A DNA stretch of 64,000 nucleotides, taken from assembly GCA_016193315.1 (NCBI GenBank), contig JACPSJ010000001.1:21935-85934 (forward strand). The letters run 5' to 3'. A program made the translations under genes and the position numbers. This DNA comes from Candidatus Kerfeldbacteria bacterium. GTDB taxonomy: Bacteria > Patescibacteriota > Patescibacteriia > SBBC01 > CAIJZX01. Positions within the stretch are counted from its first letter, which is position 1; every line of letters begins with the position of its first letter. Below, piece after piece: positions 1,276 through 46,387 of the stretch. The notes beneath the pieces were generated by a model. It did no database searches, had not been told where the DNA came from, and saw nothing but the letters and a program-made list of their open reading frames with translations.

Positions 1276-2288
1276 CGTCGCGTCAACAGCTTTACCATAC
1301 CTCGATTGCCGTCGACTTCGACTTGATCACCGTCTTGAAAAACCTGCGTGGCATACTTGGTGCCGACGATACAGACGATCCCAAATTCTCGGGCCACGAT
1401 CGCGGCATGGCACATTGCTCCACCCTCGTCGGTCACAATCGCCGCGGCCCGGCGAGCCGCGGTTACGAAATCCGGAGTCGTCATCGGCGCAACCAAGACA
1501 TCACCCGGCCGAACTTTCCGGAGCTGTGAGTGCTCGAACACGACTTTGACGCGGCCACTCGCTTTTTTCTGTATCACACTTGTCCCGCGGAGAGGGCCCG
1601 ACGAGCCAGCCGCGGCATCAAAGGTGATATTGCGGCGACGGGCAAACGTTTCCAGGCGGAGGTCAGCGAATAATTTCCCGCGATAAAAGATGAAGCCGCG
1701 TTTTCGGCGGTTAATGTCTGGCGGCAGGCGGACTGATTCAACTTCCTGTTTAGTCAGGAGCTGGACTATTGGGGAGAAGCTCGCCGGGAGCTTTTTCTTA
1801 GCCATAGATACGAACGTTTTTTCGCCGACACTCAGCAGCTGATCGTATTGGTGGCGCAATCGTTGTGCCTTTTTAGCCAATGGCGGCGAAATTTGATCAG
1901 GGATAAAGCTGCCGAAAATGTCGGCAAAATCTATCAGTGGCCAGATGCTTAGCAGCAAACTGTAGGCTTTCGAAAAATCTTTGGGATTTGCTCGTTCCGA
2001 TAACTCCAAAAATTGTTGCGCCCGCGTCTCGCATTTCACCAGCATTGAATCGACCGCGTGCCGATGTTTGGAATAGTGCTGCTCGAAATGATCGTAATCT
2101 TGCCGGCGATCGGAAAAGTCGAAGTAGAGTGCCGTCCCGCGGCCGGGCCGGTAGTGAAACAGGGGAGCGAAGAAAATACTGCCACCAAATGCTTTCGGTA
2201 AGATGACGCGTTCCCCGCGATCCCAATTTTGACAGAGCAGGAGGGAGATTGATCGATTTTCGACCTTTCGAAAGTGATGAGGCTTCAC
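1272..2288 (-). CDS. PEP-utilizing enzyme mobile (swivel phosphohistidine) domain protein with a ~240-aa N-terminal domain of unknown function
   Basis: C-terminal TTPDFVTAARRAAAIVTDEGGAMCHAAIVAREFGIVCIVG is the PEP-utilisers His motif; 4-bp overlaps at both ends suggest an operon. Confidence 0.7.
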   Translation of the reverse strand: MKPHHFRKVENRSISLLLCQNWDRGERVILPKAFGGSIFFAPLFHYRPGRGTALYFDFSDRRQDYDHFEQHYSKHRHAVDSMLVKCETRAQQFLELSERANPKDFSKAYSLLLSIWPLIDFADIFGSFIPDQISPPLAKKAQRLRHQYDQLLSVGEKTFVSMAKKKLPASFSPIVQLLTKQEVESVRLPPDINRRKRGFIFYRGKLFADLRLETFARRRNITFDAAAGSSGPLRGTSVIQKKASGRVKVVFEHSQLRKVRPGDVLVAPMTTPDFVTAARRAAAIVTDEGGAMCHAAIVAREFGIVCIVGTKYATQVFQDGDQVEVDGNRGMVKLLTRR

Positions 2289-3778
2289 AATATCTTGACT
2301 ACACCTTTCCCGGCATCAACTTCCACTAGATCTCCATCCTTGAGCACTTTTGTAGCCACTCGGGTGCCGATGACGCACGGCTTCTTCAACTCCCGGGCGA
2401 TGATTGCGGCGTGACAAAGCATACCGCCCTCATCAGTGATGATTGCCTTAGCCCGCTTCATCAGCGGCACGAACTCAGGTGAGGTCATCGAGGTGACGAG
2501 GATTTCACCATTTTGAAAGTACCGTCCTTCGTGAATCGGATTGGTGATCGAACGAACCCGGCCAGTAGCTTTTCCCGAAAAGGCGGTTGAGCCTTGGAGT
2601 AGTTTCGCTTGCGCGATTGCTTCCTCGTGCCAATCTTCTTTGCGCACGCCGCTCAAAACTTGAATTTGCTGGCCCACCTGTTTAATGGTAAAACCCTTCA
2701 CCTTGCGCCCGGCGACGATGCGGCGGATCGAATCGCCGCGAAGTCCAGCTATGATTTCCTCCCGCGACAGCCACCATAAATCATTGGGTTCGATACTGAG
2801 GCGTCGGCTGACCTCGTCGTACAGTGGGGCAGCGTGCTGCCAGTAATCGTGGATAAAGAGTGAATCGAGGTTGCGGTAACCCATCATAACCCGCAGCCAA
2901 TGGATGTGTTGACGGACTCGCGGATAGGTACGGAAGCGGGCGAGGATCTTTCGCACCGTCGTGGCTGCTTGCCGTTCTTGAGTTTGGAGAAGTCGTCGGG
3001 CTCGTGGCACCGATAATCCCCGCGACCGAAGAAATCGTTGTTCATAATCAGCCGGGGTAAACGGCCTATTCGTACGCTCGTTGAAAACGCTATGGCCGAA
3101 GTCGTACCATTGTTGGAAAACTACGTTCTGAATGGCCGCCAGGCGACGCTGGCGCTTGATTCGATGGAGACGATGGATCTGTTGCAGGCGGCGGAGGAAA
3201 GCCATGCGCTCGGCGATGAAAATGGAACGGATGCCGACTTGACATAACTGTCGGTAGACCCGCTCTTGTTCTTCGTCCGTGGCGTCAATCAGAACTTCGC
3301 CAATCTCCTGTCTGACAATCCGTGTCAGCAGGTTCACTAGGTCATAGACGATGTAGTATCCCGCTGAAGCAATCTTGCTAGCTAGATGCAGTACTTCGAA
3401 CTCGCGGCGGAGTTGGTTGGTGGACAACCCCAGGTAAAATTCAGGCCCCTTTCGGAAGATTGCATCGGTCATCCGCCTGAGTTGGCGGTACGAGTCGTGG
3501 AAATACCGATCGAGATATTGGAAATAGCGGTGCTCGCGCCGCAGGCGTTTCCAGATTTTTCCCAAAAAAGCATCTTCGACCTTCCGATCCCAATACAAAT
3601 AGACTTGCCGCTTGTTCGGCCCGTCCATCGATACGTACTTGACCCAATTAGGCAAGTTTCGGTACGGCGCGGCGCGCCAGTTGAGCAACGTCACCTGAAG
3701 CGTCTCCTGCTCATGGAGGACTTCAATGGTCCGAACCATTTTTTCGATGTAGCGCTGGTCGGAAAAGGGACGGTACAT
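2285..3778 (-). CDS. second PEP-utilizing mobile-domain protein with a ~390-aa N-terminal domain of unknown function
   Basis: C-terminal TSPEFVPLMKRAKAIITDEGGMLCHAAIIARELKKPCVIG; paralogous to the 1272..2288 gene. Confidence 0.7.
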   Translation of the reverse strand: MYRPFSDQRYIEKMVRTIEVLHEQETLQVTLLNWRAAPYRNLPNWVKYVSMDGPNKRQVYLYWDRKVEDAFLGKIWKRLRREHRYFQYLDRYFHDSYRQLRRMTDAIFRKGPEFYLGLSTNQLRREFEVLHLASKIASAGYYIVYDLVNLLTRIVRQEIGEVLIDATDEEQERVYRQLCQVGIRSIFIAERMAFLRRLQQIHRLHRIKRQRRLAAIQNVVFQQWYDFGHSVFNERTNRPFTPADYEQRFLRSRGLSVPRARRLLQTQERQAATTVRKILARFRTYPRVRQHIHWLRVMMGYRNLDSLFIHDYWQHAAPLYDEVSRRLSIEPNDLWWLSREEIIAGLRGDSIRRIVAGRKVKGFTIKQVGQQIQVLSGVRKEDWHEEAIAQAKLLQGSTAFSGKATGRVRSITNPIHEGRYFQNGEILVTSMTSPEFVPLMKRAKAIITDEGGMLCHAAIIARELKKPCVIGTRVATKVLKDGDLVEVDAGKGVVKIL

Positions 3779-19286: not shown

Positions 19287-19664
19287 ATGCCGGCTAAAAC
19301 ACCGAAGAACATTCTGATTGTTGAAGACGAAAAACCAACGGCCCAAGCTCTCCAACTGAAGCTGCAACGAAGCGGCTTTGCGGCGGCCATCGTCACTAAC
19401 GGTACCGACGCACTCGAAGCCTTGCTGCAACGCCGGTACTCACTAATCATTCTTGACCTCATCGTCCCGCAGCTAGACGGTTTCAGCTTTCTGGCGGCGA
19501 TGAAAGATCGCGGCGACCCGACGCCGGTCATCGTAGTCAGCAACCTCAGTCAGCCGGAAGATATGGCTCGGGCCGCCGAACTCGGCGCCAAGCATTTCTT
19601 CGTCAAGTCAGAAACAACCCTGGCGGCGATCGTCAACGCCATCAAGAAAACCCTGACGCCATGA
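19287..19664 (+). CDS. single-domain response regulator (CheY-like receiver)
   Basis: Receiver-domain motifs: ILIVEDE acidic pocket, phospho-acceptor IILDL(D), T/S at VIVVS, K at FFVKS. Confidence 0.85.
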   Translation: MPAKTPKNILIVEDEKPTAQALQLKLQRSGFAAAIVTNGTDALEALLQRRYSLIILDLIVPQLDGFSFLAAMKDRGDPTPVIVVSNLSQPEDMARAAELGAKHFFVKSETTLAAIVNAIKKTLTP

Positions 19665-21307
19665 AATTCGACGACGGCAAAATCAAGGACATCCTGCAAG
19701 GCGAAAATTACGTCTCGGCCGAAGATCTGGAAAAGGGGGCGGCCTCGGCGCGAGCCCACCGGGTCAGCCTAGTAGACGCACTGCTGGCCGAGAACCTGAT
19801 CACTAAGGATCTGCTGGGGCAAGCCATCGCCGAGTCGTTCGATGTCGCCTTCCTTGACTTGTCGGCGAACCCGCCGCCGCGTGATCTGGTGACGCGGTTG
19901 CCAGCCGCGATGGCCAAGCAAGAACGAGTCGTGCTGGTGGCCGAAGAACATCACCAGGTGAAGGTGGCAACTGACGACCCGGGACGGTCGACGCTAAAGA
20001 CGAAGCTGAAGAAACTCTGGCCCCGCAAGAAGCTGGTGGTCGTGTATGCGTTGCCAGAAGACATTGATGGCATACTGAAACACTATCGGCCGCCGCTCGG
20101 CAAACGGTTCCTAGCCATTCTCCAGCAACGGCAGCGGGTGGCGCCGGAGCTGATCGATGAAATCATCGAGGACGCAGTTACCAGCCGAGCCTCCGATATC
20201 CACATCGAGCCCCAAGGTCAGGAGATCGTTGTCCGCTTCCGGGTCGATGGCGTCCTCTATGAGGCCGGCCGGATCCCGAAGCGCTACTACGAGATGCTGC
20301 TCAACCGGATCAAGATCGAAGCCCGGTTACGGATCGATGAACATTTCGCCGCCCAAGACGGCGCTATTCGTCACGAACAACGGGATCGGGTGATCGATAT
20401 GCGGGTCTCGATCGTGCCAACCTACGATGGAGAAAAGGTGGCCATCCGGCTGTTGACCGACTATGTCCGCGAGTTCACGCTCGGGCGACTGGGGTTGTCC
20501 GAACGACACCAGCAGCAGTTACTCGAAGCCGCCCGCCAGCCATTCGGCATGATTCTAGTCACTGGCCCGACCGGGTCGGGCAAAACCACCTCGCTCTACG
20601 CGTTGATGAAAGTGCTAAACGCGCCGGAGATTAACATCACCACCATTGAGGACCCCATCGAATACCAGGTCACTGGCATCAACCAAATTCAGGCCAATCC
20701 GAATACCAACTTGACGTTCGCCCAAGGCTTACGGTCGATCATTCGCCAAGACCCAGATGTGGTCTTGGTCGGCGAGATACGTGACCAAGAGACAGCGGAA
20801 ATCGCCATTAACGCCGCTCTCACCGGCCACCTGTTGCTGTCCACTTTCCATGCCAACGACGCCGCCACAGTCATCCCTCGTTTGATCGAGATGGGTGTTG
20901 AGCCGTTCCTGGTCGCCTCGACCCTGGAACTGGTCATTGCCCAGCGTCTGGTCCGGACCATTTGCCGCGTTTGCCGAGTCAGCCAGCCGGTAAACCTCGA
21001 AGCGGTGGCCGAACTATACCCGCAAATCCGACGCTACCTGCGCGGGGCCAAGACGACGCTCTACCATGGCAAGGGATGCGCTGCTTGTAACGGCACCGGC
21101 TATCAAGGTCGGACTGGTCTATTCGAAGTCATTGCCATGACACCAGCGATGGAAGAACTAATTCTTCGCCGGCCAACGACGCAGATGGTCTGGCAACGAG
21201 CCGTCCAGCAAGGATCACGATCGCTGTTCGAGGATGGGATTGATAAAGTTAAAGCCGGGAAGACTACCCTCGAGGAGCTGCTGCGCGTCGCTCCGCCGCC
21301 GTCATAA
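19661..21307 (+). CDS. pilB: type IV pilus / type II secretion assembly ATPase (PilB/GspE family)
   Basis: GSPII_E N-terminal domain, Walker A GPTGSGKTT, Asp box and His box, tetracysteine CRVCRV...CAACNGTG. Confidence 0.9.
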   Translation: MKFDDGKIKDILQGENYVSAEDLEKGAASARAHRVSLVDALLAENLITKDLLGQAIAESFDVAFLDLSANPPPRDLVTRLPAAMAKQERVVLVAEEHHQVKVATDDPGRSTLKTKLKKLWPRKKLVVVYALPEDIDGILKHYRPPLGKRFLAILQQRQRVAPELIDEIIEDAVTSRASDIHIEPQGQEIVVRFRVDGVLYEAGRIPKRYYEMLLNRIKIEARLRIDEHFAAQDGAIRHEQRDRVIDMRVSIVPTYDGEKVAIRLLTDYVREFTLGRLGLSERHQQQLLEAARQPFGMILVTGPTGSGKTTSLYALMKVLNAPEINITTIEDPIEYQVTGINQIQANPNTNLTFAQGLRSIIRQDPDVVLVGEIRDQETAEIAINAALTGHLLLSTFHANDAATVIPRLIEMGVEPFLVASTLELVIAQRLVRTICRVCRVSQPVNLEAVAELYPQIRRYLRGAKTTLYHGKGCAACNGTGYQGRTGLFEVIAMTPAMEELILRRPTTQMVWQRAVQQGSRSLFEDGIDKVKAGKTTLEELLRVAPPPS

Positions 21308-21313
21308 TCAACC

Positions 21314-22900
21314 ATGAGGAAAAACCGCGCCAGCAACGACAGCGGTTCAGGCCGGCGGACGAAGACGCGGCATCACGACTGGCCGAGTCGCACGCGGGCA
21401 CCAGGCCGACTCGGATGGTGGCGGCGTGGCTGGGGCAAGGAGCGAGAGTATCTGATTGAGAACTTAGCGATGCTCGTCGCTTCGGGGCTGGACTTAGTGT
21501 TGGCTCTCCAGTCGCTGGTCGAAGAAACACGTTCGCCGGCTGCGCGTCGAGCCCTGGTGGCTGTCCGGAGCGAGGTGGAGACCGGCCAACCGCTGTGGCG
21601 AGCGCTCGCCGGCAGCCGAGCTTTTTCAGACTACGTCATTTCGTTGATCCGCGTGGGTGAAGAAAGCGGTCGGCTGGCCGAACATCTTCAGGTGGTGGCC
21701 GAACAACTAGCCAAGGACCGGCAGTTCGCCGAGCGGGTGCGCTCGGCCATGATGTATCCGCTGATTGTATTATCGCTCACCATTGTGGTCGGCACGGGCG
21801 TGGCTTGGTTTATCTTGCCTCGTCTGGCCACAATTTTCACCCAACTCCACCGCGACCTGCCGGTGGTGACAAGGGTAATGATCGCCAGCGGTCAGTTCCT
21901 AGGGACATTTGGGTGGTTGGCGGTGCCCTTGTTCCTGTTGGCGGTGGTTGGTGTGGGGTACCTCGTCTTTGTCCATCCCAAAACAAAATTCATCGGCGAA
22001 GGGCTGCTCGATCGAATTCCTCCCCTGCGTCGCCTGACGCAGGAGGTGGAATTGGCACGGGCGGGGTACCTGTTTGGACACTTGCTGGAGGCGGGCGTGC
22101 CGATCATCGAGTCGCTGGAATCGCTCAGCCAGGCGACGACCACTCGTAAATACCGACAGTTTTACCAGCACCTGCGAGGCAGCATCGCCGATGGGCATTC
22201 CTTCCGCCATAGCTTCCGCGTCATTCCGGCCGCCAACGCCATCGTCCCAACGCCCATCCAACAGATGATTGTGGCCGGCGAGCAATCCGGTCGCCTAGCC
22301 TCGACGTGGCTCGGTATTGGCCAGCGCTTCGAAGCCAAGACGGAAACGACGGCCAAAAACCTAGCGGTCGTCATCGAGCCCGGTTTGCTTGTCGTCGTTT
22401 GGTTGGGCGTGGTCTTTGTGGCGGTGGCCGTCATTCTGCCGATCTACTCGCTGATCGGCAGCTTGGATGAGCCGCCGGCCGTGAATGGCACGTCTCGGAA
22501 CGTCACGTCTCAGCCGCCGACCGCTGAGGCCAATACCAATACCGCGCCGCCGGCCGACGATAACGTCAATGTTACGGTCAATGCCCCGAGTGAGCCCGAA
22601 CCCACACCCAACCCGCCGGTCGGCGATTCGAATGAAAATACGAATCAAAATGTGACTCCGGAGACGCCGACGACTCCGACGGCCGGCAACCAACTGACGA
22701 TTAACCAGACCAGCACTGGCTATCTTAATGTCCGACAAGGGCCGGGCCTCGGATACACGGTCCTCACCCGGGCCAAGCCTGGCCAGACGTACCCCTGGCT
22801 CCGTCTCGAAGCCGGCTGGTATGAAATCGAATTGGCCGAGGGTCAAACCGGTTGGGTTATCGGCCGGTACGTAACCGTGGCATCGAGTCAGGAACCTTGA
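21314..22900 (+). CDS. pilC: PilC/GspF-type platform protein fused to a C-terminal Pro/Thr-rich linker and an SH3b-like domain
   Basis: Two T2SSF repeats with 3 TM segments (residues ~45-370), a PT-rich low-complexity stretch, then GYLNVRQGPGLGYTVLTRAKPGQTYPWLRLEAGWYEIELAEGQTGWVIGRYV, which resembles a bacterial SH3 domain. Confidence 0.8.
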   Translation: MRKNRASNDSGSGRRTKTRHHDWPSRTRAPGRLGWWRRGWGKEREYLIENLAMLVASGLDLVLALQSLVEETRSPAARRALVAVRSEVETGQPLWRALAGSRAFSDYVISLIRVGEESGRLAEHLQVVAEQLAKDRQFAERVRSAMMYPLIVLSLTIVVGTGVAWFILPRLATIFTQLHRDLPVVTRVMIASGQFLGTFGWLAVPLFLLAVVGVGYLVFVHPKTKFIGEGLLDRIPPLRRLTQEVELARAGYLFGHLLEAGVPIIESLESLSQATTTRKYRQFYQHLRGSIADGHSFRHSFRVIPAANAIVPTPIQQMIVAGEQSGRLASTWLGIGQRFEAKTETTAKNLAVVIEPGLLVVVWLGVVFVAVAVILPIYSLIGSLDEPPAVNGTSRNVTSQPPTAEANTNTAPPADDNVNVTVNAPSEPEPTPNPPVGDSNENTNQNVTPETPTTPTAGNQLTINQTSTGYLNVRQGPGLGYTVLTRAKPGQTYPWLRLEAGWYEIELAEGQTGWVIGRYVTVASSQEP

Positions 22901-22902
22901 GT

Positions 22903-23343
22903 ATGCTGAAAGCTATGCGGTCAGGAATTACTCTGATCGAGGTCCTGTTAAGTCTCACCGTGATCGGGTTGCTCGTCGGCCTGGCCGCACCGGTCATGCA
23001 GTCCCTCCAAGCGCGTAACGACCTCGACGTGGCCGCCAACATCACCGCGCAAACGCTGCGGCGAGCGCAAGCCTTAGCTGTGGCCGTGGACGGGGACATG
23101 ATGTGGGGAGTTGTCCTCCAACCAGGGTCGGTAGTTTTGTTTCGCGGGTCGTCGTATGCGGCTCGCGAGCCGACTTTCGACGAGCAGTATGATCTCGCCC
23201 CGGCCATTACGCCGAGCGGGTTGACGGAGGTCGTATTTGCCAAGCTGACCGGTCGACCACAGGCGGTCGGCACGATCACCCTGGCTAATCCGGAGACGAG
23301 CCGGACGCTGACGGTCAACGAACTGGGGATGATTGAATACTAG
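22903..23343 (+). CDS. prepilin-type minor pilin / pseudopilin
   Basis: Class III signal MLKAMRSG|ITLIEVLLSLTVIGLL with Glu at +5. Confidence 0.7.
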   Translation: MLKAMRSGITLIEVLLSLTVIGLLVGLAAPVMQSLQARNDLDVAANITAQTLRRAQALAVAVDGDMMWGVVLQPGSVVLFRGSSYAAREPTFDEQYDLAPAITPSGLTEVVFAKLTGRPQAVGTITLANPETSRTLTVNELGMIEY

Positions 23344-23496
23344 CCTTGGCGACCCAGACGTGCTATGCCCCGGCACACGTTACCTGACCGACCCACCGCA
23401 GGTCAGATCAAACACTCCGGCTTTATCAGACACCTCGCTTTTAGTGTGATGCGACGCTCGCGAGTAAAGAGGAGAATCAACCAGCAGTCCAATACT

Positions 23497-25227
23497 ATGG
23501 TCAGGCACAGACGGCAAAATGGCTCTAGCGCGGGGTTTTCGGTGGTTGAAGTTTTGCTGGGCGTCAGCGTCTTTAGCTTATTAGTGACAGTTTTCGTTGG
23601 GGCTTACATCTACGGCCGCGAAAGCTCGCTTTTGGCCGGCCACCGTGGCCGGGCCGCGTTGGTGGCCGAGGAAGCAATGGAGGGCGTTCGCAGCATTCGT
23701 GACGGCAGTTTCGTTGACCTGACGGCCGGTGATCATGGCGTCCTCCCGATCGGCGGCCAGTGGCAGTTCTTCGGGACTAGTGTCCTGAATGATATCTTCA
23801 CCCAGCAGGTGACGATCAACGACGTCAGTCCGACGGCCAAATCAGCTGTCGCTCAAGCCACCTGGACGCAGAATCTGCAGCGGCCAGGATCCGTCAGTCT
23901 GAGCACTCGTTTGACCGACTGGCGGCGAACTGTCCGGCGAGGTGGGATGCTTATTTATGGCGATTACTCTGGGAATGACGACGTTATTCAGTACCGCCTG
24001 TTCAGCCGCGCCGGCACCTGGGGCGCCGTACAAACGGTTCCAGATTTCGGTGTACCGCTGCACCGACCGACACGCCGAGTCGAACTGTATTCCAACCCTT
24101 CGTCACGTGATGAGAAGGTGTTGGTAACGAAACATTTTGGCGGCGGGGCGGGAGATGACCTTTATCTGTATGCCCAAGTTTGGAACGGCACGACTTGGGG
24201 CAATGCCACTCAACTCGCCACTCGGAAAGACACGAACTTCCCGAGCAGTCGCGAGTTCGACGGCGACTATCTCGACGACGGTCGGTTTCTCTTGGTCTAC
24301 GGCGATGACACCAGAATCCCAAAATTCAGATTCTGGGACGGTACGGCGTGGTCATCAGCCGCCCCAACCGTTGATATCCGCGGCCGACCAGTCTGGATTG
24401 TCGTTCGGTCCCGCTCAGGGACGAACGAAGCCATGGTCGTCATTCTCGACGACCAGCGGGATACGAACACCATCTACTGGAACGGCAGCAGCTGGCTCGG
24501 CCCGGTTGAACACGGCAATAACGGGCCGGGAGCGGAATTCGACATGGTCAACTTCGTTTGGCGGCCGACCAACCCGACGCTCGGCGCGCTCGTCTACAAC
24601 GAAGGGAATGACAACCATCCAAACATCAAAGTGTGGGACAATGGAATTTGGGGCCCCAGCGTGGAAAACATCAACCTGGGGAAATCTATCCGCGCGATGC
24701 AGACCACCAGCGATCCGACGAGTGGCGATTGGCTACTCGGCGTCAAGGACAACGGCGATCGTATCAACAGCTTACTGAGTGACACCACGCCATCGTGGCA
24801 TACATTGACCAACGGACAACTGGCGGTCAAGACCGACAACGGTCCGCAGCGGAGTTTTTCGCTGGCCTTTGAAACCAACGCCGGCCAGCGGGCCATCGCC
24901 GTCTACGCCGATGGGCCGAACGCTGATGCCCTGGGGATTCCTAAGTACCGGACGTATGACCCGGCTACGAAAACCTGGGGTGCCGCCGGGAACTTGGCCG
25001 ATCTTGGTGGTCGGGCCGCAGCGCTCGAGAGCGTGGGGTTAATTCCCGACCCAGGAGGGGAGGATATCATGACGCTGATGGCCACCACCAACCAGCAGCT
25101 GTGGACGGTGCGGTGGAACGGTGCGACGCACGCTTTTTACTCGACCGGCGACGAGGCGCAGATTCGTCAAGCCACGAACGGATCTAGCGACGAAGATTTT
25201 TGGTTTGATTATGCCTGGGACAATTAA
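23497..25227 (+). CDS. large prepilin-like protein (577 aa) with a PilY1-like C-terminal repeat (putative beta-propeller) domain
   Basis: Leader MVRHRRQNGSSAG|FSVVEVLLGVSVF. The C-terminal half carries ~6 repeats of a W(N/D)G..W motif (VWNGTTWGNA, FWDGTAWSSA, YWNGSSWLGP, VWDNGIWGPS, KTWGAAGN, VRWNGATHAF). Confidence 0.65.
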   Translation: MVRHRRQNGSSAGFSVVEVLLGVSVFSLLVTVFVGAYIYGRESSLLAGHRGRAALVAEEAMEGVRSIRDGSFVDLTAGDHGVLPIGGQWQFFGTSVLNDIFTQQVTINDVSPTAKSAVAQATWTQNLQRPGSVSLSTRLTDWRRTVRRGGMLIYGDYSGNDDVIQYRLFSRAGTWGAVQTVPDFGVPLHRPTRRVELYSNPSSRDEKVLVTKHFGGGAGDDLYLYAQVWNGTTWGNATQLATRKDTNFPSSREFDGDYLDDGRFLLVYGDDTRIPKFRFWDGTAWSSAAPTVDIRGRPVWIVVRSRSGTNEAMVVILDDQRDTNTIYWNGSSWLGPVEHGNNGPGAEFDMVNFVWRPTNPTLGALVYNEGNDNHPNIKVWDNGIWGPSVENINLGKSIRAMQTTSDPTSGDWLLGVKDNGDRINSLLSDTTPSWHTLTNGQLAVKTDNGPQRSFSLAFETNAGQRAIAVYADGPNADALGIPKYRTYDPATKTWGAAGNLADLGGRAAALESVGLIPDPGGEDIMTLMATTNQQLWTVRWNGATHAFYSTGDEAQIRQATNGSSDEDFWFDYAWDN

Positions 25228-25273
25228 CTACACTCGGCCGCGACCCAGGACCCAGCCTGACAAGGTTTCAGGA

Positions 25274-25777
25274 TTGAAATCCCGGCCCAGCTTTACCCTG
25301 ATTGAACTCCTCCTCTACATCTCGCTGACCGCCATCATTACCTTCTCGGTCAGCTCCTTTCTGGTCGTGACTATCGATGCGCGGGTAAAAAACCAAACGG
25401 TAGCCGAGGTCGAGCAACAGGGTCAGACGGCGATGGTCATGATGACGCAGGCGATCAGGAACGCTCAAGGCATCAACAGCCCCGCCCTGGGAGAGGTCAC
25501 TAACACATTGTCGCTCGACGTGATCGAGGTGAGCAAAGACCCGACGACATTCACTTTGGCTGCCGGACAGCTGTGGGTGCAGGAAGGTGTAGCCCCGGCA
25601 GTGGCCCTGACGAATACCCGCATCCGGGTCATGGACATGTCGTTCATAGACTTATCACGCTCGAGCCAATCGCGCTCCGTCCGTATCAACCTCGTTCTCA
25701 ACTACTTCAATACTAGCGGCCGCAACATCCACACCTACACCAAGGTCTTTCAAGCCGCGGCTAACCCACGACCATGA
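25274..25777 (+). CDS. prepilin-like minor pilin, probably TTG-initiated
   Basis: TTG at 25274 gives MKSRPS|FTLIELLLYISL, a short leader with Glu+5. The in-frame ATG at 25211 would overlap the upstream gene by 17 nt. Confidence 0.5.
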   Translation: MKSRPSFTLIELLLYISLTAIITFSVSSFLVVTIDARVKNQTVAEVEQQGQTAMVMMTQAIRNAQGINSPALGEVTNTLSLDVIEVSKDPTTFTLAAGQLWVQEGVAPAVALTNTRIRVMDMSFIDLSRSSQSRSVRINLVLNYFNTSGRNIHTYTKVFQAAANPRP

Positions 25778-26172
25778 ACCAACGACGAAAGGGCATGATT
25801 ACGCTGATCAGCATCCTCGTCCTGGCCGCGGTCGGCGGCGCGGTGGCGGTGTCACTACTGCTGCTCGGGGTGGATGCCACCAGGACGAGTTCCAGCCGCG
25901 AGTTCTCGGCCGCGGCCCGGGCCCTGGCCAACGCCTGTGTCGAGACAGCCCTCGAGGAAATTCGTTCTTATACTCCCTTCACCACCGCCGGCACAAACCT
26001 GAACATTGGTTCTGGCACCTGCACCTACGTCGTGGCAAACACTGGCGGCTTCCGTCGCACCATCCAGGCGAGCGGGAGCATGGGGTCAGTCAGCCGCAAG
26101 GTCTTGGTCACCGTTGACCGAATCAACCCTACTATTCGGGTCACGTCTTGGCAGGAAGTGGGGGATTTCTAG
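25774..26172 (+). CDS. prepilin-like minor pilin (PilX/ComGG-like)
   Basis: MNQRRKG|MITLISILVLAAVGGAVAV; 4-bp overlap with the upstream pilin. Confidence 0.6.
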   Translation: MNQRRKGMITLISILVLAAVGGAVAVSLLLLGVDATRTSSSREFSAAARALANACVETALEEIRSYTPFTTAGTNLNIGSGTCTYVVANTGGFRRTIQASGSMGSVSRKVLVTVDRINPTIRVTSWQEVGDF

Positions 26173-26220
26173 GTCGGCGCCATACCGCTGGCCCGCCCAA
26201 TCAGGCTGTGTACAGCTCTT

Positions 26221-26253
26221 TGCTTCACAGACGAGCGCGGGTGTGCTATAATA
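26221..26253 (+). promoter_or_regulatory. extended -10 promoter upstream of the major pilin gene
   Basis: gtgTGcTATAAT at 26245..26253 (TGnTATAAT consensus); TTGCTT 21 nt upstream. Confidence 0.45.
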
Positions 26254-26308
26254 GGTGTGGTCGAGCCAGTACCTAACATCCAGATCTAGATAATCTCTCC
26301 AAACGAAA

Positions 26309-26818
26309 ATGAAACTAACCATGCCGACGCTTTCGTTACAAACCCGCCGCCATCTCCCCCGCGGGCGGGCAGGACGGGCCGGTTTTACGCTGCTCGAAAT
26401 TCTACTCGTCGTGGCGGCCATCGGTATTTTAGCGGGGATTGTCATCATAGCCATTAATCCTACCAAACAGCTCGGTGACACTCGGAACGCCCAGCGCAAA
26501 ACGGACGTCAATACGATCCTCAATGCGGTGTACCAGTACGCGGTTGACAGCGGTTCAATCCCATCGACGATCACGGACACCGCTACCGAGATTTGCGCCA
26601 CCGGCGTGGCCGCCGCTGATTGTACCACCGCCGGGCTGATTGATCTCTCAGTTCTGACCACGGCCGAGAAATACTTAGTCTCCATGCCCCAGGATCCGCA
26701 GTGTAGCACCGTTTGCGCGACCGACGGCGTCGACTACCAAATCCTCAAGACGGCCAATAACCGCGTGACGGTCAGCGCGCCGGGAGCTGAAGGAACGACC
26801 GTTTCGGTCACCCGATAA
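26309..26818 (+). CDS. pilA: type IVa major pilin candidate
   Basis: ...RAGRAG|FTLLEILLVVAAIGILAGIVIIAINP classical pilin N-terminus; Cys pairs in the C-terminal part; own promoter. Confidence 0.75.
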   Translation: MKLTMPTLSLQTRRHLPRGRAGRAGFTLLEILLVVAAIGILAGIVIIAINPTKQLGDTRNAQRKTDVNTILNAVYQYAVDSGSIPSTITDTATEICATGVAAADCTTAGLIDLSVLTTAEKYLVSMPQDPQCSTVCATDGVDYQILKTANNRVTVSAPGAEGTTVSVTR

Positions 26819-26884: not shown

Positions 26885-29800
26885 TTGCATGCCATGTTTC
26901 CCTCCACCACCGTCCACCATCCTCCGTCATCAACACTTTCCGCGCCTCAGGTAAGCCGCCAACCGTTGACCGGCCGACAAGTGATCGTGCGCTTAGCCAG
27001 CGCCGCGGTTTCTTATCTGGGCTTGTTTACCTTGATCGGCTGGGCGGGGGAACTCGAAACATTCAAGAGCGTCTTACCCGGGACGTTACCAACGAACCCG
27101 TTGCTGGCCGTGTCCTTAATCTTTCTCGGCGGCGCGATGTGGCTAGCGGAAGATCGTTCCCGGGCCGAGCTGCAGCGGCTAAGCGGCGTTTTGTCTGGCA
27201 CAGTGGTGGCCGTGGCGATACTGCGGCTGGTGGCCTGGCTGGGGCTCGATCTGGGTATCGATCAAGCCATCTTCCCCAGAGCGGTTAGCTCGTATGTCCC
27301 GCCCATCCGGATCGGCATCGCCACCGCGGTTGGTCTCCTCACGGGGTCGACGGCGCTGGCCTTCCTCCGCCTCGGCCACCAACGGTGGTTGCGGCCGGCG
27401 CAGTGGTTATCGTTCCTAACGGCAACATTGGCCAGCCTGGCCCTGATCGGACATCTTTACGGCGTCACCGCACCCGTACCGATCGGTCTAGTTTCCGCTG
27501 TCGGCCTGTTGATTGTTGGTCTCGGCCTGCTGGCCAGCGATCCACTCCGCCAGCTGCCAGGCTTAGGTCTGGCCACGAAAGTCAGTCTAGCCGTCGGATT
27601 CTTCGGCCTGGTCAGCATGGCCGTCGCCAGCTACTCGGTCTACGGCAAGACGATTCGTGATCTCGAGCAGTCGCTCGGCCAGCAACAAGAAGTCGCGGCG
27701 GCTAACACGATGCAGAAGATTGACCGTTTGCTGGAAGAGGCGTTGGAGGATATCGAATTGATCAGCACTGATAACGCCCTAGTCGCGTCCTTGTCTAGTT
27801 CGCCAACAGACACAGACGTTAGCTCTCGTCTCAGCACGCTGGCCGGCGCCACTGGGCCGTGGTCGATGTTGAGTGTCGTCGGATCGGACTTTCAGCTGGT
27901 GTCCTCGACGAGCCCTTCGTTTTCATCAACCTCGACGGCCCTCACGACCGAAGGCCGGCGTGTCTTGACGTCGGCGCGGCTGCGATTGGTATCTTACAGC
28001 GATGTCATCCCACCCACCCGCCAGCGCTCACCAACCGTTATCCTGGCCGCGCCAGTCTTGGCCACTGCTCCTGATCGCCCCCTCCTCGGGGTGGCGGTCG
28101 GCGAGATAGATTGGTCCGGGGTGACCAAGACGTTACGCGACGTCCGTGATGGCACGGTCCAGCTCTACGACCGCCGCGGGATCATGGTGGCCACGAATGA
28201 TGTCGGTCGGCAGCGCTTGGCGTGGCGAGCAAATTTTCGCGGCCACCGGGCGGTGGATCAAGCGCTGCGCGGGCGAGTCGGGTCAGAGATTGGTTCGGGG
28301 CTAGTCCCGGAGTCGATTGGTCAAGCCCCACCAACGCTCGCGGTAGGCGAATTAACTGCCGGTTCGGAAGCAACGTCACAACAAACACTCGTTTCCTACG
28401 TGCCGCAGCGTGGGTACCTCGAGTATCGCGGCAGTGGCTGGGCTTTGACCCTGGAGACGAAAACCGGCTCCGTGGTGACGGCGGCGCTGCAGACCGCTTC
28501 CCAAGTAGCTCTGACCACTGCGGTTTTAGTCAGCCTACTGATTGTGTCCTTGCTACTCGTGCTGCGGACGTTCCTTCATCCCGTGGCCCGACTGACCGCC
28601 GGCGCCCGCGGCTTAGCGGCTGGCAATTTTGCTCAGCGAGTGGCGGCCGACACTGATGACGAACTCGGCCAGCTAGCGGCGGCATTTAACACCATGGCCA
28701 CCCGCCTCCAGGAGCTCTACCGACGACTTGATGATAAAGTCCATCGGCGGACGGCACAGCTGGTGGAGAAAGTAGAGTTCATCTCCCGCCAAAATCTCCT
28801 GCTACAGGAAGCACGTCGAGCGATGTCAAAGGTGGTCCAAGAATTACAAACCGACAAGGCGAGGATCGCCGAAGAGCAGGCCAAAGACCAAGCCATGCTA
28901 GCCAGCATCGGCGATGGGGTGGCCATCACCGATGCCGAGGGGAAGGTAGTAATGTTGAATCAGTCCGCGGAACGACTGCTGGGGTGGACCGTCGCCGAAG
29001 CGATCGGCCAGCGTTACGATCAGGTGGCCCCGCTGGTTGACGACCGTGGTCGAGAAGTCCCGCTCCTGGAACGGCATTTCTACCAATCGCTGCAAACCGG
29101 CGCGGTCACGTCGTTACCAGTCATCGCTTCCCGCTCATTCTATCGGCGGAGAGATGGGACCAAGTTTCCGATGGCGGGCATTACCACCCCGATCCATCTC
29201 CACCATCGAATCATCGGCGCCATTACCGTCTTCCGCGACATTACCCAGGAAAAAGCTGTTGATCGCGCCAAGACGGAATTTGTGTCCCTCGTCTCACATC
29301 AACTCCGGACCCCGATTTCATCAATCAATTGGCTGACCGAGCTACTCCTGACCGGTGAAATTGGTCGCCTGACTCGAGACCAACGTCAAGTGGTCGGCGA
29401 AATCGCTTCCGCCAGCCACCGCGTGATCGAGATGGTCACGACGTTCCTCAACGCGACACGATTAGAACTCGGTACGCTGGTGGTCGAACCGGAGCCGGTC
29501 GACGTCAGCCGCCTGGTGACATCGATTTTCCAGGAGCTGGAGCCGGTCGTCAAGCACAAGCGTTTGCAGATGGAACAACGCCAGGTCGGTCCAGGGACGC
29601 CGGTGCCGGCCGATCCGACCCTGATGCGCATCATCGTTCAGAATTTGCTCACCAACGCCGTCGTCTACTCCCGCCCCGGTGGCAAGGTTCGGGTGACCGT
29701 AACGAACCGTAGTCCCCAGGCCAGGCCGGCGCCGGACGCCCAGGGAGTGATGATCTTGGAAGTAGCCGATAATGGCATCGGCATCCCGACCGAACAACAG

Positions 29801-30127
29801 CCCCAAATCTTCGATAAGCTTTTTCGGGCAGATAACGCTCGGACGGCTGAACCGAACGGTACCGGTCTCGGATTATACATCGTCAAGTCTATCCTCGACC
29901 ACGTCGGCGGTACCATCTCGTTCACCTCTCCAGCCGGGCGGGGCACAACCTTTACGGTCACCTTGCCGCTGAGCGGCATGAAGCGACAGGCCGGCACCAA
30001 GCCGCTCCAGATCAGTCCGCGCAAACAAGTATCTCTGGACACGAGTAACAAAAAACCCCGATCCCCGCGATCCCCAATTGAATCGGGGCGGGGAGATCGG
30101 AGACAGCCTGTTGGCATCAGGCGGTAA
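26885..30127 (+). CDS. sensor histidine kinase (1080 aa): N-terminal multi-TM sensor, ~300-aa extracytoplasmic domain, HAMP, PAS, HisKA, HATPase_c
   Basis: ~7 N-terminal TM helices, HAMP (LTAGARGLAAGNFAQRVAADTDDELGQLAAAFNTMATRLQ), PAS (ASIGDGVAITDAEGKVVMLNQSAERLLGWT), H-box EFVSLVSHQLRTPISSI, N/G boxes (LLTNAVVYS, GTGLGLYIV). Confidence 0.85.
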   Translation: MHAMFPSTTVHHPPSSTLSAPQVSRQPLTGRQVIVRLASAAVSYLGLFTLIGWAGELETFKSVLPGTLPTNPLLAVSLIFLGGAMWLAEDRSRAELQRLSGVLSGTVVAVAILRLVAWLGLDLGIDQAIFPRAVSSYVPPIRIGIATAVGLLTGSTALAFLRLGHQRWLRPAQWLSFLTATLASLALIGHLYGVTAPVPIGLVSAVGLLIVGLGLLASDPLRQLPGLGLATKVSLAVGFFGLVSMAVASYSVYGKTIRDLEQSLGQQQEVAAANTMQKIDRLLEEALEDIELISTDNALVASLSSSPTDTDVSSRLSTLAGATGPWSMLSVVGSDFQLVSSTSPSFSSTSTALTTEGRRVLTSARLRLVSYSDVIPPTRQRSPTVILAAPVLATAPDRPLLGVAVGEIDWSGVTKTLRDVRDGTVQLYDRRGIMVATNDVGRQRLAWRANFRGHRAVDQALRGRVGSEIGSGLVPESIGQAPPTLAVGELTAGSEATSQQTLVSYVPQRGYLEYRGSGWALTLETKTGSVVTAALQTASQVALTTAVLVSLLIVSLLLVLRTFLHPVARLTAGARGLAAGNFAQRVAADTDDELGQLAAAFNTMATRLQELYRRLDDKVHRRTAQLVEKVEFISRQNLLLQEARRAMSKVVQELQTDKARIAEEQAKDQAMLASIGDGVAITDAEGKVVMLNQSAERLLGWTVAEAIGQRYDQVAPLVDDRGREVPLLERHFYQSLQTGAVTSLPVIASRSFYRRRDGTKFPMAGITTPIHLHHRIIGAITVFRDITQEKAVDRAKTEFVSLVSHQLRTPISSINWLTELLLTGEIGRLTRDQRQVVGEIASASHRVIEMVTTFLNATRLELGTLVVEPEPVDVSRLVTSIFQELEPVVKHKRLQMEQRQVGPGTPVPADPTLMRIIVQNLLTNAVVYSRPGGKVRVTVTNRSPQARPAPDAQGVMILEVADNGIGIPTEQQPQIFDKLFRADNARTAEPNGTGLGLYIVKSILDHVGGTISFTSPAGRGTTFTVTLPLSGMKRQAGTKPLQISPRKQVSLDTSNKKPRSPRSPIESGRGDRRQPVGIRR

Positions 30128-32649: not shown

Positions 32650-33140
32650 TCAGACCGCGGGCACGTCAGTGCCCCGGTTTTTTGTCGATTCGCTGGGCGC
32701 CGATTGCCAGGCGCGTCTCGCCGCGAGCGCGGTTCCAAACAAAAAAATTGAAATCCCAGCTGAGATGAGGCAGTAGAAACAATAAGCTTTCAACACGAAT
32801 GCTTGCAGCCAGAGTAGATACAGGCTAAAGAGGAACCCCACCACGGTCAGAAGCATCAGGATCCGTAGCCACCGGACCTGTCCAGTATCCAGAACCATGA
32901 TGCTGAGAACGACAATGACCAGGTAGTAGCCCGCGCCCAGGAGCGAAATCGGAACCGGGCCGATGGTAGCGTAGACGCTATTGGTCACTACGTCGCAGCC
33001 GGTGGTGACCAGGCAGGGGATTGGCCCGTGCGTTAACTTCTCGACCGTCAGGAATGTGGCGTCGGCAAAGCCAAGCACGCCCAGGACGAGAAAGACAATG
33101 ACCCAGGTTTTTGGTTGACGCGCCGCCAGACCGTTAGTCA
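32650..33140 (-). CDS. vitamin K epoxide reductase (VKOR) family protein
   Basis: 4 TM helices, loop Cys pair CLVTTGC and active-site CFYC in TM4. Proposed GTG start at 33140 overlaps the TAA of the upstream DsbA-like ORF (gtgactaa). Confidence 0.7.
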
Positions 33141-34272
33141 CATCCCGTTCCCAAGCCCCCGACGCAGTTCTCGGTCGGCGGTTGACCGCGCTCCGGGCAC
33201 TTCTCCGAGTAGATACAGGCTTTGTCCGTGACGTTGGCCACCTGATCTTGGGTTTCGGCCGGCGTGTAGGTGCCAAAGAGAACAAGAATCCTGTCCAGGT
33301 CGTTCGGCTGATAGGCGCCAAACTGTGTATTCGCTTGGCCATTGACGAACAGTTGAAGTTTCTGGTCGCCGCTGGTGCATTTGTCCTGGCCGGTGTCGAG
33401 TTTCAAACATTGCGCGGTCAAGCCCATGCCGAAGGAGGTCAAGAGATCACTGAGGCTGACGTCAGCGGCGTGGATGTGCACCACCTCGCCATTGCCGTCG
33501 TGGAAATGGATGCCGGGGTGGAGGTGGTTGGCTTCGGTGGCTTGGAATTTATCCTGGGAGAAGTCGATGGCTTGACCATCGACGACCAGGCGAAAATCAA
33601 AGTGGTTGTGCACGGTGGCCGGGCTGGTGTTTGTCAACGGCCGCTTAGCAATTGCTTCTTCAATCAGCTTCTGGAAGTCTTCCAGACTGCGCGGGTTCTG
33701 AAGACGTTCGCCGTTGAGAAAGAAGGTCGGTGTACCGTTGACTTGGGCGCGGCGGCCGCTGGCGGCGTCGGTATCGACGACACTCGATACGGCGGTAGAA
33801 TCCAGATCAAGAGATCGTGCATCGGCCAGAACGCATCCTGTTTGGCCGCGGCCTCGGAGGCTTCGGCCGAGGCTTCAGCGTTTAGATGCGACTGGGTCAG
33901 CGGGAAGTGGCGGTAGGCGAGGCCAAGCCGGTCACCGAACTTGTCCGTCAATGATTGCAGGACCGATTCGTAGGCGGCGCAGGCCGGACACTGGAAGTCG
34001 CCGTATTCGATCAGAATCGCTGGTGCCTGGGCTGAACCACGAACATGATCAGTGGCTTTGATGGCATCAACCGATGAGTTAGTGTTGTTATCCGGTTGGC
34101 CCTTGGCCAAGTAGACGAGGCCCCAGACGATGAGGCCTAACCCAAGAATCGTCCCCCCCCAAGTGAGGATGCGCCGCGGGGCCACCGGTTTCTTGACCGA
34201 CTCATTGGTCGGCAACAGTCCTTGCCGGCGTAACTCGCGACGCTGCTTCTTGGTCAAATGTTGGTCGTCCAT
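33134..34272 (-). pseudogene. DsbA-family thiol:disulfide oxidoreductase with an N-terminal TM anchor and a C-terminal Cys-rich extension, interrupted by a frameshift near 33760..33810
   Basis: Upstream ORF: TM anchor, then FQCPAC...FWPMHDLL (DsbA-like). A different frame continues with ...RRAQVNGTPTFFLNGERLQNPRSLEDFQKLIEEAI... (classic DsbA C-terminal motif) into ORF 33134..33637. Confidence 0.5.
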
Positions 34273-46315: not shown

Positions 46316-46387
46316 TCGGTCCCTAGCTCAATGGTAGAGCACTCGTCTTATACACGAGCGGTTGCAGGTTCGAGTCCTGCGGGACCG
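46316..46387 (+). tRNA. tRNA with anticodon TAT (would read AUA; Ile-like), no encoded CCA
   Basis: Cloverleaf: acceptor CGGTCCC/GGGACCG, D-arm GCTC..GAGC, anticodon stem CTCGT/ACGAG, loop CTTATAC, T-arm GCAGG TTCGAGT CCTGC. Confidence 0.6.

What the first reader, a model, noticed from the sequence alone, without database searches (positions are those of the whole stretch)
21314..22900. PilC platform protein fused to a C-terminal SH3b-like domain
The inner-membrane platform protein normally ends right after its second T2SSF repeat. Here a ~70-aa Pro/Thr-rich linker and a ~75-aa SH3b-like module (GYLNVRQGPGLGYTVLTRAKPGQTYPWLRLEAGWYEIELAEGQTGWVIGRYV) follow it. After the last TM helix this extension would be on the outside of the membrane. 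There it could bind cell wall or another partner.
Basis: partly seen in the sequence, partly recalled or inferred. Interest (0 to 1): 0.6.

Follow-up and report, generated by a model that had tools for sequence, protein, structure and literature searches.

The report
Pilus platform protein with wall-binding tail
A candidate-phyla-radiation bacterium (Candidatus Kerfeldbacteria) encodes its type IV pilus membrane platform protein PilC fused, through a floppy linker, to an outward-facing SH3b domain of the kind that normally binds cell wall; the fusion is real and common in this bacterial group but I found no paper describing it, and it probably tethers the pilus machine to the wall.

Summary
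ORF 21314-22900 (+) encodes 528 aa: a basic disordered N-terminus, two T2SSF repeats with three transmembrane helices, a 72-aa Pro/Asn/Thr-rich disordered linker, and a C-terminal SH3b domain (Pfam SH3_3, 45 bits against a cutoff of 27; AF2 pLDDT 94; TM about 0.8 to endolysin and amidase wall-binding SH3b domains).

It is not a frameshift artefact. The same protein is NCBI MBI2984046.1, the tail is identical in four independent assemblies, and 72 of the 120 best homologues carry the same architecture.

All named homologues are Patescibacteria/CPR. Fused and unfused PilCs sit in the same operon: response regulator, PilB, PilC, about five pilins, histidine kinase. The tail is patchily distributed, so it is an accessory.

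Published PulF topology places the C-terminus outside the membrane. Linkers are short (median 40 aa), so the partner lies within the cell's own envelope. The most likely role is anchoring or positioning the platform on peptidoglycan in a secretin-less envelope; this is inferred, not shown.

No paper found describes the fusion, and public annotation calls it only a "T2SS F family protein". I class it as a new variant of a known kind, of moderate interest. A wall-tethered PilC would constrain rotary models of pilus assembly.

The parts
19287..19664 (+). Single-domain response regulator, first gene of the conserved pilus operon
   Evidence: Pfam Response_reg 3.1e-21. The same gene lies upstream of PilB in most related loci.
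19661..21307 (+). PilB-type assembly ATPase (MshEN + T2SSE)
   Evidence: Pfam T2SSE 3.3e-121 and MshEN 2.1e-14. It lies directly upstream of PilC in 78 of 80 related loci.
21314..22900 (+). PilC-SH3b fusion gene, 528 aa plus stop
   Evidence: ORF; Pfam T2SSF plus SH3_3; identical to NCBI MBI2984046.1.
21314..21430 (+). aa 1-39: Arg-rich, predicted disordered cytoplasmic N-terminus
   Evidence: pLDDT below 50 for aa 1-27. Relatives have a median of about 21 residues here.
21431..21736 (+). aa 40-141: first cytoplasmic T2SSF helical bundle
   Evidence: Pfam T2SSF stretch aa 48-169. Foldseek TMt 0.9 to EpsF/OutF domains and to the PilC N-domain 2WHN.
21737..21838 (+). aa 142-175: TM helix 1
   Evidence: Hydropathy; AF2 helix 121-178.
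21890..21985 (+). aa 193-224: TM helix 2
   Evidence: Hydropathy; AF2 helix 184-219.
21986..22354 (+). aa 225-347: second cytoplasmic T2SSF helical bundle
   Evidence: Second Pfam T2SSF stretch; AF2 helices at pLDDT above 90.
22355..22471 (+). aa 348-386: TM helix 3. Unfused orthologues end here.
   Evidence: Hydropathy. Unfused relatives have a median tail of 0 aa. PulF TMS3 ends in the periplasm.
22472..22687 (+). aa 387-458: Pro/Asn/Thr-rich disordered extracytoplasmic linker
   Evidence: Composition; pLDDT about 44-56. In relatives it is not conserved in sequence or length: 14-250 aa, median 40.
22688..22879 (+). aa 459-522: SH3b (SH3_3) beta-barrel
   Evidence: Pfam SH3_3; PDB profile hits; AF2 pLDDT 93.7 with seven strands; Foldseek TM 0.74-0.83 to 9A7D, 2KRS and 4KRT.
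22903..23343 (+). Prepilin-like protein (146 aa), GspH-like minor pilin
   Evidence: N_methyl motif and weak GspH hit. The motif G|ITLIEV is visible in the translation. Start taken from the public gene call.
23365..25227 (+). Large (620 aa) prepilin-like protein, AG|FSVVEV motif
   Evidence: Translation; weak N_methyl. A 594-aa counterpart sits at this position in L003; the Moraniibacteriota locus has a 256-aa gene there.
25211..25777 (+). Prepilin-like protein (188 aa), S|FTLIEL motif
   Evidence: Translation; N_methyl 0.011; gene call.
25774..26172 (+). Small (132 aa) pilin-like protein with an N-terminal TM segment and no Glu5
   Evidence: Translation. A 134-135 aa gene holds this position in L001 and L003.
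26321..26818 (+). Candidate major pilin (165 aa), AG|FTLLEIL motif
   Evidence: N_methyl 1.4e-4 and weak T2SSG hit; gene call.
26894..30127 (+). Large sensor histidine kinase that closes the operon
   Evidence: Translation. The kinase segment taken from this protein (aa 701-1000) finds a + strand match 3-8 kb downstream of PilC in about half of the related loci, and public gene calls in L001 and L003 carry HisKA/HATPase_c there.

Best explanation
[quoted passage not shown] After its third and last transmembrane helix it carries an extracytoplasmic, disordered Pro/Asn/Thr-rich linker of about 72 aa and a single SH3b domain. Shown here: the architecture, its authenticity, its fold, its conservation and its operon context. 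Inferred: the tail lies outside the membrane, and the SH3b domain binds the cell's own wall, most likely peptidoglycan. Platform proteins are thought to be trimers, so up to three tails would emerge next to the pilus base and tether or position the platform under the wall. That would give an envelope-less-secretin, Gram-positive-like machine a built-in wall anchor. The job would be comparable to that of peptidoglycan- or S-layer-binding modules on other parts of related machines (PilQ AMIN, TsaP/FimV LysM, MotB, archaellum FlaF). The tail is an optional accessory, because orthologues in the same operon often lack it.
For: Architecture: T2SSF x2 plus SH3_3 above the Pfam cutoff. AF2 models the core and the SH3b confidently and the linker as disordered. 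The platform half matches PilC in 3JC8, EpsF, OutF and 2WHN. The tail matches wall-binding SH3b domains of the Psm endolysin 4KRT, the YrvJ amidase 9A7D, and 2KRS/2KT8. The canonical SH3_3 motifs LNVR, GWY.I and GWV are more than 90% conserved across the fused family.

Authenticity: NCBI MBI2984046.1 is the same 528 aa. The tail is identical in four separate SRA assemblies. 72 of 120 homologues and about 46 of 80 species-representative loci carry the fusion.

Topology: three TM segments, a basic N-terminus and an acidic tail. The periplasmic end of PulF TMS3 and its C-terminal helix face the periplasm (PMC10790770).

Reach: linker median 40 aa, interquartile range 31-52, so at most about 14 nm fully extended. 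The partner must therefore be in the cell's own envelope.

Context: PilB lies directly upstream and five prepilin-like genes downstream. CPR lack PilQ and have Gram-positive-like envelopes (PMC6744442). In a Moraniibacteriota relative the operon sits next to a class A PBP and Ddl, so at least that fusion-bearing lineage makes peptidoglycan.
Against: No binding data exist, and the ligand specificity of SH3_3 domains cannot be read from sequence. About 70% of the PilC-borne SH3b domains are net acidic (median -3), whereas many endolysin wall-binding domains are basic. The fusion is patchy among orthologues: 22 parsimony changes on 120 tips, and unfused proteins sit in the same operon. It is therefore not essential to the machine. 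A static tether conflicts with models in which PilC/PulF rotates in 60-degree steps. No peptidoglycan-synthesis gene was identified within this 64-kb window; the rest of the genome could not be examined.
Confidence: 0.5

Rival explanations
1. The SH3b domain binds a protein of the machine rather than the wall. Candidates are the pilus shaft, the minor-pilin priming complex, or PilN/PilO-type ectodomains. It would act as a collar, guide or chaperone at the pilus base.
For: TMS3, from which the tail emerges, lines the central channel of the PulF trimer, so the tails start right under the pilus base. The shortest linkers are only 14 aa, about 5 nm, which keeps some SH3b domains very close to the membrane. 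The domains are mostly acidic. A partner that turns with PilC would avoid conflict with rotary models.
Against: The closest sequence and structure relatives are all modules of wall hydrolases or surface proteins. Pilins in these operons diverge rapidly, whereas the SH3b motifs match the generic SH3_3 family. No co-variation was tested.
Confidence: 0.22
2. The tail still binds wall, but its role is placement rather than mechanical anchoring. It would target new machines to particular wall regions (for example septal or polar peptidoglycan) or recruit or sense local wall remodelling so the pilus can pass.
For: There is precedent in T4aP: the peptidoglycan-binding AMIN domains of PilQ determine polar placement in Myxococcus. 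This rests on the title of PMC10653833 listed and on my own knowledge. The fusion is dispensable in many orthologues, which fits a modulatory role better than a structural one.
Against: Nothing in the sequence separates this from simple anchoring. No hydrolase gene is consistently linked to the operon.
Confidence: 0.15
3. The tail is a near-neutral decoration. Mobile SH3b modules are abundant in CPR surface proteins, and here one has been repeatedly gained and lost on PilC without a specific role in pilus function.
For: The distribution is patchy, with 22 changes on the tree. Linker-only remnants occur (P0025, P0048, P0095, P0105). The SH3_3 family is very large, with 5,695 representative clusters at E<=0.001.
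Against: The domain is kept intact, with more than 90% conservation of core motifs, in lineages whose PilC cores are only about 49% identical. It is always C-terminal and always behind a linker. The state clusters on the tree far better than chance: 22 changes against 37.6 for shuffles, minimum 30. Some lineages have duplicated it (L028, L035, P0049).
Confidence: 0.08
4. The SH3b domain reaches out to bind the wall of the host or partner cell on which the episymbiont sits.
For: CPR bacteria are episymbionts, and their type IV pili mediate host binding. A few homologues have tails of 250-320 aa.
Against: Typical linkers of 31-52 aa reach at most about 11-18 nm from the cytoplasmic membrane. That is unlikely to clear the cell's own wall and S-layer. 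The platform sits at the base of the machine, not at the cell surface.
Confidence: 0.03
5. The fusion is an artefact: a sequencing or assembly frameshift, or a chimera, joining pilC to a separate downstream SH3 gene.
For: None found. One public gene call (476 aa) differs from the ORF, but only at the start codon.
Against: The tail is identical in four independent assemblies and in the NCBI MAG. The continuous frame is conserved in 72 diverged homologues. No SH3 match was found anywhere in the fetched stretch of any locus that lacks the fusion, so no free-standing SH3 gene accompanies unfused PilCs. GC and GC3 of the tail are similar to the core.
Confidence: 0.01

Closest known systems
Canonical platform proteins PilC / GspF / PulF (T2SSF family, PF00482)
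   Same: Two T2SSF helical-bundle repeats, three TM helices, a gene adjacent to a PilB-type ATPase and pilins, and cytoplasmic domains that superpose on EpsF, OutF and Thermus PilC.
   Different: Canonical proteins, and the unfused CPR orthologues, stop at the end of TM3. This one continues with a linker and an SH3b domain. The N-terminal domain seen in PulF is missing: only about 39 disordered residues precede the first repeat. It falls below every NCBIfam equivalog cutoff, for example GspF at 195 bits against 424.
SH3b cell-wall-binding domains of endolysins, autolysins and NlpC/P60 peptidases (Pfam SH3_3; e.g. Psm endolysin 4KRT, B. subtilis YrvJ, C. perfringens 2KRS/2KT8)
   Same: Sequence family, the motifs LNVR / GWY.I / GWV, and the beta-barrel fold.
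   Different: Those domains are attached to secreted wall hydrolases, often in tandem. Here a single copy is attached to a polytopic membrane protein of a filament-assembly machine, and in most relatives it is net acidic.
Wall or S-layer anchors of related machines: PilQ AMIN domains, TsaP and FimV LysM domains (T4aP), MotB OmpA-like domain (flagellar stator), FlaF (archaellum, binds the S-layer)
   Same: The proposed job is the same: coupling an envelope-spanning filament machine to the rigid wall layer. (FlaF and the T4aP papers are listed; the rest is my own knowledge.)
   Different: There is no homology. Pfam finds no LysM, AMIN or OmpA domain in this protein. In those systems the anchor sits on the secretin, on accessory proteins or on the stator, never on the platform protein, which is the part proposed to move.

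Membership tests
T2SSF platform protein family (PilC/GspF/PulF) | Two copies of the T2SSF (PF00482) domain | tested here: met
   Pfam E=4e-42, 143.6 bits against a cutoff of 25.2, two stretches.
T2SSF platform protein family (PilC/GspF/PulF) | Three TM helices arranged Cyto1-TM1-TM2-Cyto2-TM3, N-terminus inside | tested here: met
   Hydropathy segments at aa 142-175, 193-224 and 348-386 with a basic N-terminus. AF2 helices match. This is a prediction only; there are no experimental topology data.
T2SSF platform protein family (PilC/GspF/PulF) | Cytoplasmic domains adopt the EpsF/PilC helical-bundle fold | tested here: met
   Foldseek TMt 0.83-0.91 to 2VMB, 3C1Q, 5NBG and 2WHN, and E=3e-10 to the PilC chain of 3JC8.
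T2SSF platform protein family (PilC/GspF/PulF) | Encoded next to a PilB/GspE ATPase and prepilin genes | tested here: met
   PilB lies 6 nt upstream and five prepilin-like genes lie downstream. The synteny is conserved.
Specific equivalogs (NCBIfam GspF, HofC, PilC-Thermus, PilC-Myxococcus, ComGB) | Score above the curated equivalog cutoff | tested here: not met
   GspF 195 bits against 424; PilC-Thermus 147 against 700; ComGB 119.5 against 240. Only family-level assignment is justified. 'PilC' is used here by context.
Bacterial SH3 domain, SH3_3 (PF08239) | Sequence match above the Pfam gathering score | tested here: met
   45.0 bits for the whole protein and 48.9 bits for the tail alone, against a cutoff of 27.
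Bacterial SH3 domain, SH3_3 (PF08239) | SH3b beta-barrel fold | tested here: met
   AF2 pLDDT 93.7 with seven strands. TMq 0.74-0.83 and rmsd 1.2-1.9 A to 2KRS, 4KRT, 2KT8 and 4R0K.
Bacterial SH3 domain, SH3_3 (PF08239) | Binds peptidoglycan or another wall polymer | not testable with these tools
   Needs sacculus-binding assays. Only family association supports it.
Known peptidoglycan-anchoring parts of T4P/T2SS (LysM of TsaP/FimV, AMIN of PilQ, GspA/B-type domains) | Presence of a LysM, AMIN or PG_binding domain | tested here: not met
   The Pfam scan at E<=1 shows none. Any resemblance is functional only.

The most novel reading that the evidence does not exclude
The SH3b tails fix the PilC platform to the static peptidoglycan. 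If so, hundreds of CPR lineages run a type IV pilus whose platform cannot turn continuously. Three 14-50 aa tethers emerging beside the pilus base could not absorb the roughly 170 turns implied by 60 degrees per subunit for a pilus of about 1,000 subunits (that subunit number is my own assumption). The rotary-platform model (PMC5424180, PMC10790770) would then need replacing by an oscillating or non-rotating mechanism, at least in these machines. The fusion would also provide a natural tethered-PilC experiment.
Probability: 0.15. Interest if true: 0.75.

Novelty: new variant of a known kind. Interest (0 to 1): 0.5.

Why it matters
Type IV pili are the best-conserved surface machinery of CPR/Patescibacteria and mediate their attachment to host cells. 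How these secretin-less machines are held in a Gram-positive-like envelope is unknown. A wall-binding module built into the platform protein itself would be a previously undescribed solution. It is widespread: it occurs in more than half of the closest PilC orthologues across Kerfeld-, Uhr-, Moran-, Magasanik-, Doudna-, Jackson-, Nomura-, Gracili- and WWE3-type lineages.

It also bears on an open mechanistic question. Current models have the ATPase rotating PilC/PulF. A platform tethered to a static wall by short linkers is hard to reconcile with continuous rotation. These natural variants therefore offer a direct test. On the practical side, the public annotation ("type II secretion system F family protein") hides the extra domain.

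Tried and rejected
(1) A word-indexed homologue search with the 74-aa tail alone returned nothing because of the prefilter. It was replaced by the exhaustive HMMER scan. That ranking is dominated by multi-repeat SH3b proteins, so it says little about the origin of the PilC-borne copy.

(2) AFDB50 Foldseek with the full-length model, meant to find the architecture outside CPR, was unavailable. Whether any non-CPR PilC carries SH3b therefore remains untested.

(3) N-x-S/T sequon enrichment in the linker, as a hint of glycosylation: 4 observed against 2.2 expected, P about 0.15. Not significant, so dropped.

(4) Looking for PilM/PilN, a second ATPase (PilT) or a second PilC near the operon. None was found in the 64-kb window or within about 8 kb in 80 related loci by tblastn, although L003 has PilM/PilN about 7 kb downstream on the opposite strand. 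The probes were distant, so absence is weakly supported.

(5) A separately encoded SH3 gene in unfused loci (split-gene idea): no tblastn hit.

(6) Frameshift or chimera: rejected.

(7) Met53 as the true start (the public 476-aa call): rejected, because conserved residues lie upstream of it.

(8) Literature searches for any description of a T2SSF/PilC-SH3 fusion found none.
Full report
**1. The observation**

The window has a single uninterrupted ORF at 21314..22900 (+) encoding 528 aa.

Pfam finds T2SSF (E=4e-42, two stretches) and, at aa 470-520, SH3_3 (E=1.3e-11, 45.0 bits against a gathering score of 27). The tail scanned on its own scores 48.9 bits and also passes the SH3_4 cutoff. NCBIfam gives only sub-threshold matches to the GspF, HofC, PilC and ComGB equivalogs. 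For the tail it gives weak matches to SH3-bearing wall proteins: EntFM, an SH3-and-anchor family, and the p60 invasion-associated endopeptidase.

A Kyte-Doolittle scan gives three hydrophobic segments (aa 142-175, 193-224, 348-386), a very basic N-terminal part and an acidic tail. The linker is dominated by Pro, Asn and Thr. The linker is about 72 aa (387-458) and the folded module about 64 aa (459-522).

**2. It is not an artefact**

- The identical 528-aa sequence is NCBI MBI2984046.1, [quoted passage not shown], on an 857-kb contig.
- A 476-aa version that differs only in its start codon was called on four independent Logan assemblies of different SRA runs, with an identical tail.
- Met1 is the correct start. 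It is the only in-frame start upstream of Met53. The family-conserved motif GKE..Y..ENL lies between the two.
- GC and GC3 of linker and SH3 resemble the core.

**3. Organism and context**

The window's GyrA is 100% identical to a Ca. Kerfeldbacteria MAG protein. All named near relatives are Patescibacteria. The window is ordinary chromosome: SMC, RNase III, L32, GyrA, S1, an ABC/FtsX pair, FtsH, VKOR, a P-type ATPase and seven tRNAs.

The locus reads: response regulator (19287-19664), PilB with MshEN and T2SSE (19661-21307), PilC-SH3b, five prepilin-like genes (22903-26818), then a large histidine kinase (26894-30127). The same gene order is seen in a Moraniibacteriota genome and in another CPR contig. 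PilB lies directly upstream of PilC in 78 of the 80 loci fetched from species-representative genomes, and most also show the upstream response regulator. No secretin, PilM/N, PilT or second PilC was found in the window. One relative has PilM/PilN about 7 kb away.

**4. Distribution of the fusion**

- Of the 120 best homologues (337 at E<=1e-5), 72 carry the SH3b tail by a family HMM.
- Of 80 loci from GTDB species representatives (355 relatives found), about 46 carry it.
- Titles include Jackson-, Moran-, Nomura-, Uhr-, Doudna-, Magasanik-, Gracili- and Paceibacteria and WWE3.
- A few records are titled Gammaproteobacteria, Pseudomonadales, Bdellovibrionales or Acidimicrobiales. They have PilB directly upstream of PilC, and most also have the upstream response regulator. 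I could not verify those labels.
- Unfused orthologues end exactly at TM3 (median tail 0 aa) and have similar core identity to the query: 51% against 49% for fused ones.
- On a neighbour-joining tree of the cores, the fusion state needs 22 parsimony changes against 37.6 (minimum 30) for shuffled labels. It is inherited but repeatedly lost or gained.
- Linkers are low-complexity (P, S, E and T lead the pooled composition), unconserved, and 14-250 aa long (median 40, interquartile range 31-52).
- Two loci and one protein show tandem SH3b copies. Four proteins retain only a linker stub.
- No free-standing SH3 gene accompanies unfused PilCs.

**5. The tail is a genuine SH3b**

The motifs LNVR, GWY.I and GWV are at least 90% conserved in the fused family.

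A profile of 40 tails hits the tandem wall-binding domains of the Clostridium phage endolysin Psm (4KRT, E=1.9e-19). It also hits several C. perfringens and Bacillus SH3b domains and NlpC/P60 peptidases. Eukaryotic SH3 domains appear only at E>0.002.

AF2 with that alignment gives pLDDT 93.7 and a seven-strand barrel. Foldseek against the PDB ranks YrvJ amidase (9A7D), 2KRS, 4KRT and 2KT8 first, with TMq 0.74-0.82.

The full-length model (pLDDT 83) has a confident PilC core and SH3b, and is disordered at aa 1-33 and 386-458. Its core matches PilC in the Myxococcus T4aP machine model 3JC8, EpsF, OutF and Thermus PilC. No solved platform protein has such a tail.

The SH3_3 family is very large, with 5,695 representative clusters at E<=0.001.

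**6. Topology**

Three points put the tail outside the membrane.
- The hydropathy and charge pattern.
- The need for both T2SSF bundles to be cytoplasmic so that they can meet the ATPase.
- Published data on Klebsiella PulF: the C-terminal helix faces the periplasm, Cys residues at the periplasmic end of TMS3 are oxidised, and TMS3 lines the central channel of a trimer (PMC10790770).

So up to three tails per machine should emerge at the outer face, close to the pilus base. This is inferred. No experiment addresses this particular protein.

**7. Mechanism**

Best explanation (about 0.5): the SH3b domain binds the cell's own wall, probably peptidoglycan, and tethers or positions the platform. 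The reasons:
- Its relatives are all wall-binding modules.
- Linkers are too short to reach beyond the cell's own envelope.
- CPR lack PilQ and have Gram-positive-like envelopes.
- At least one fused lineage has peptidoglycan-synthesis genes next to the operon.

Points against:
- No binding data exist.
- The domains are mostly acidic.
- The tail is dispensable in many orthologues.
- A static tether conflicts with rotary models.

Rivals are a protein partner at the pilus base (0.22), wall-guided localisation rather than anchoring (0.15), a near-neutral decoration (0.08), host-wall binding (0.03) and artefact (0.01).

**8. Comparison with what is known**

The protein is a member of the T2SSF family and carries a member of the SH3_3 family. 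Both memberships were tested and met. It does not reach any NCBIfam equivalog cutoff, so "PilC" is a contextual name.

Functionally it resembles wall and S-layer anchors of related machines: AMIN, LysM, the OmpA-like domain of MotB, and FlaF. It shares no domain with them, and it is unusual in placing the anchor on the platform itself.

Six full-text searches found no description of a T2SSF/PilC-SH3 fusion. The two most relevant CPR pilus papers mention PilC but not SH3. The architecture is, however, visible in precomputed Pfam annotations of public proteins.

**9. Verdict**

This is a real, conserved and widespread accessory domain on an otherwise ordinary platform protein, and I found no published description of it. 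I class it as a new variant of a known kind, with interest about 0.5.

The most novel reading still open is a wall-locked platform that cannot rotate. I give that a probability of about 0.15.

Noticed in passing
window 46316-46389 (+): ARAGORN calls a tRNA-Ile with anticodon TAT. Most bacteria read AUA with a lysidine-modified CAT tRNA, so a genuine UAU-anticodon tRNA-Ile would be unusual.
   Followed up: no
window 56925-57797 (+): A 290-aa protein has a C-terminal TonB_C domain (E=1.7e-20). The organism is expected to lack an outer membrane, so its role there is unclear.
   Followed up: no
window 49631-52852 (-): A 1,072-aa predicted surface protein has VWA, a SpaA-like prealbumin fold and three DUF11 repeats. 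It is a possible adhesin near the pilus region.
   Followed up: no
window 334-3778 (-): Three consecutive ORFs carry PPDK_N, PEP-utilizers and PEP-utilizers domains. This looks like a split or rearranged pyruvate phosphate dikinase / PEP synthase-like set.
   Followed up: no
window 19287-19664 and 26894-30127; L001, L003 and many of L009-L088: The pilus operon is bracketed by a single-domain response regulator upstream and a histidine kinase (often with a second regulator) downstream, across distant CPR lineages. This points to a conserved two-component control of this pilus.
   Followed up: partly
window 23365-25227 (+): A 620-aa prepilin-like protein has no solid Pfam match, only faint PTL_trimer and DUF2510 hits. 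A 594-aa counterpart holds this position in L003. It could be a tip adhesin.
   Followed up: no
L028 6588-7019; L035 9153-9554; proteins P0049, P0079, P0081, P0093: Some PilC orthologues carry two tandem SH3b copies. Others have tails of 250-320 aa with a long acidic, low-complexity region before the SH3b.
   Followed up: partly
L009, L013, L033, L038, L029, L057, L071, L078, L083, L084: GenBank titles name Gammaproteobacteria, Pseudomonadales, Bdellovibrionales or Acidimicrobiales for contigs whose PilC is 38-52% identical to the CPR query (best tblastn segment) and has PilB directly upstream. These are probably mislabelled MAGs, but I did not verify this.
   Followed up: no
window 21314-21469; P0001: The Logan gene call for this protein starts at Met53 (476 aa) and cuts into the first T2SSF repeat. 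NCBI's 528-aa call is the better one.
   Followed up: yes
window 32650-33342 (-): A VKOR-family protein. This family is reported next to the MdbA-like thiol-disulfide oxidoreductase family, which is enriched in CPR and was proposed to help pilin folding. Here it lies about 2.5 kb beyond the kinase gene that closes the operon (about 5.8 kb beyond the last pilin gene).
   Followed up: no
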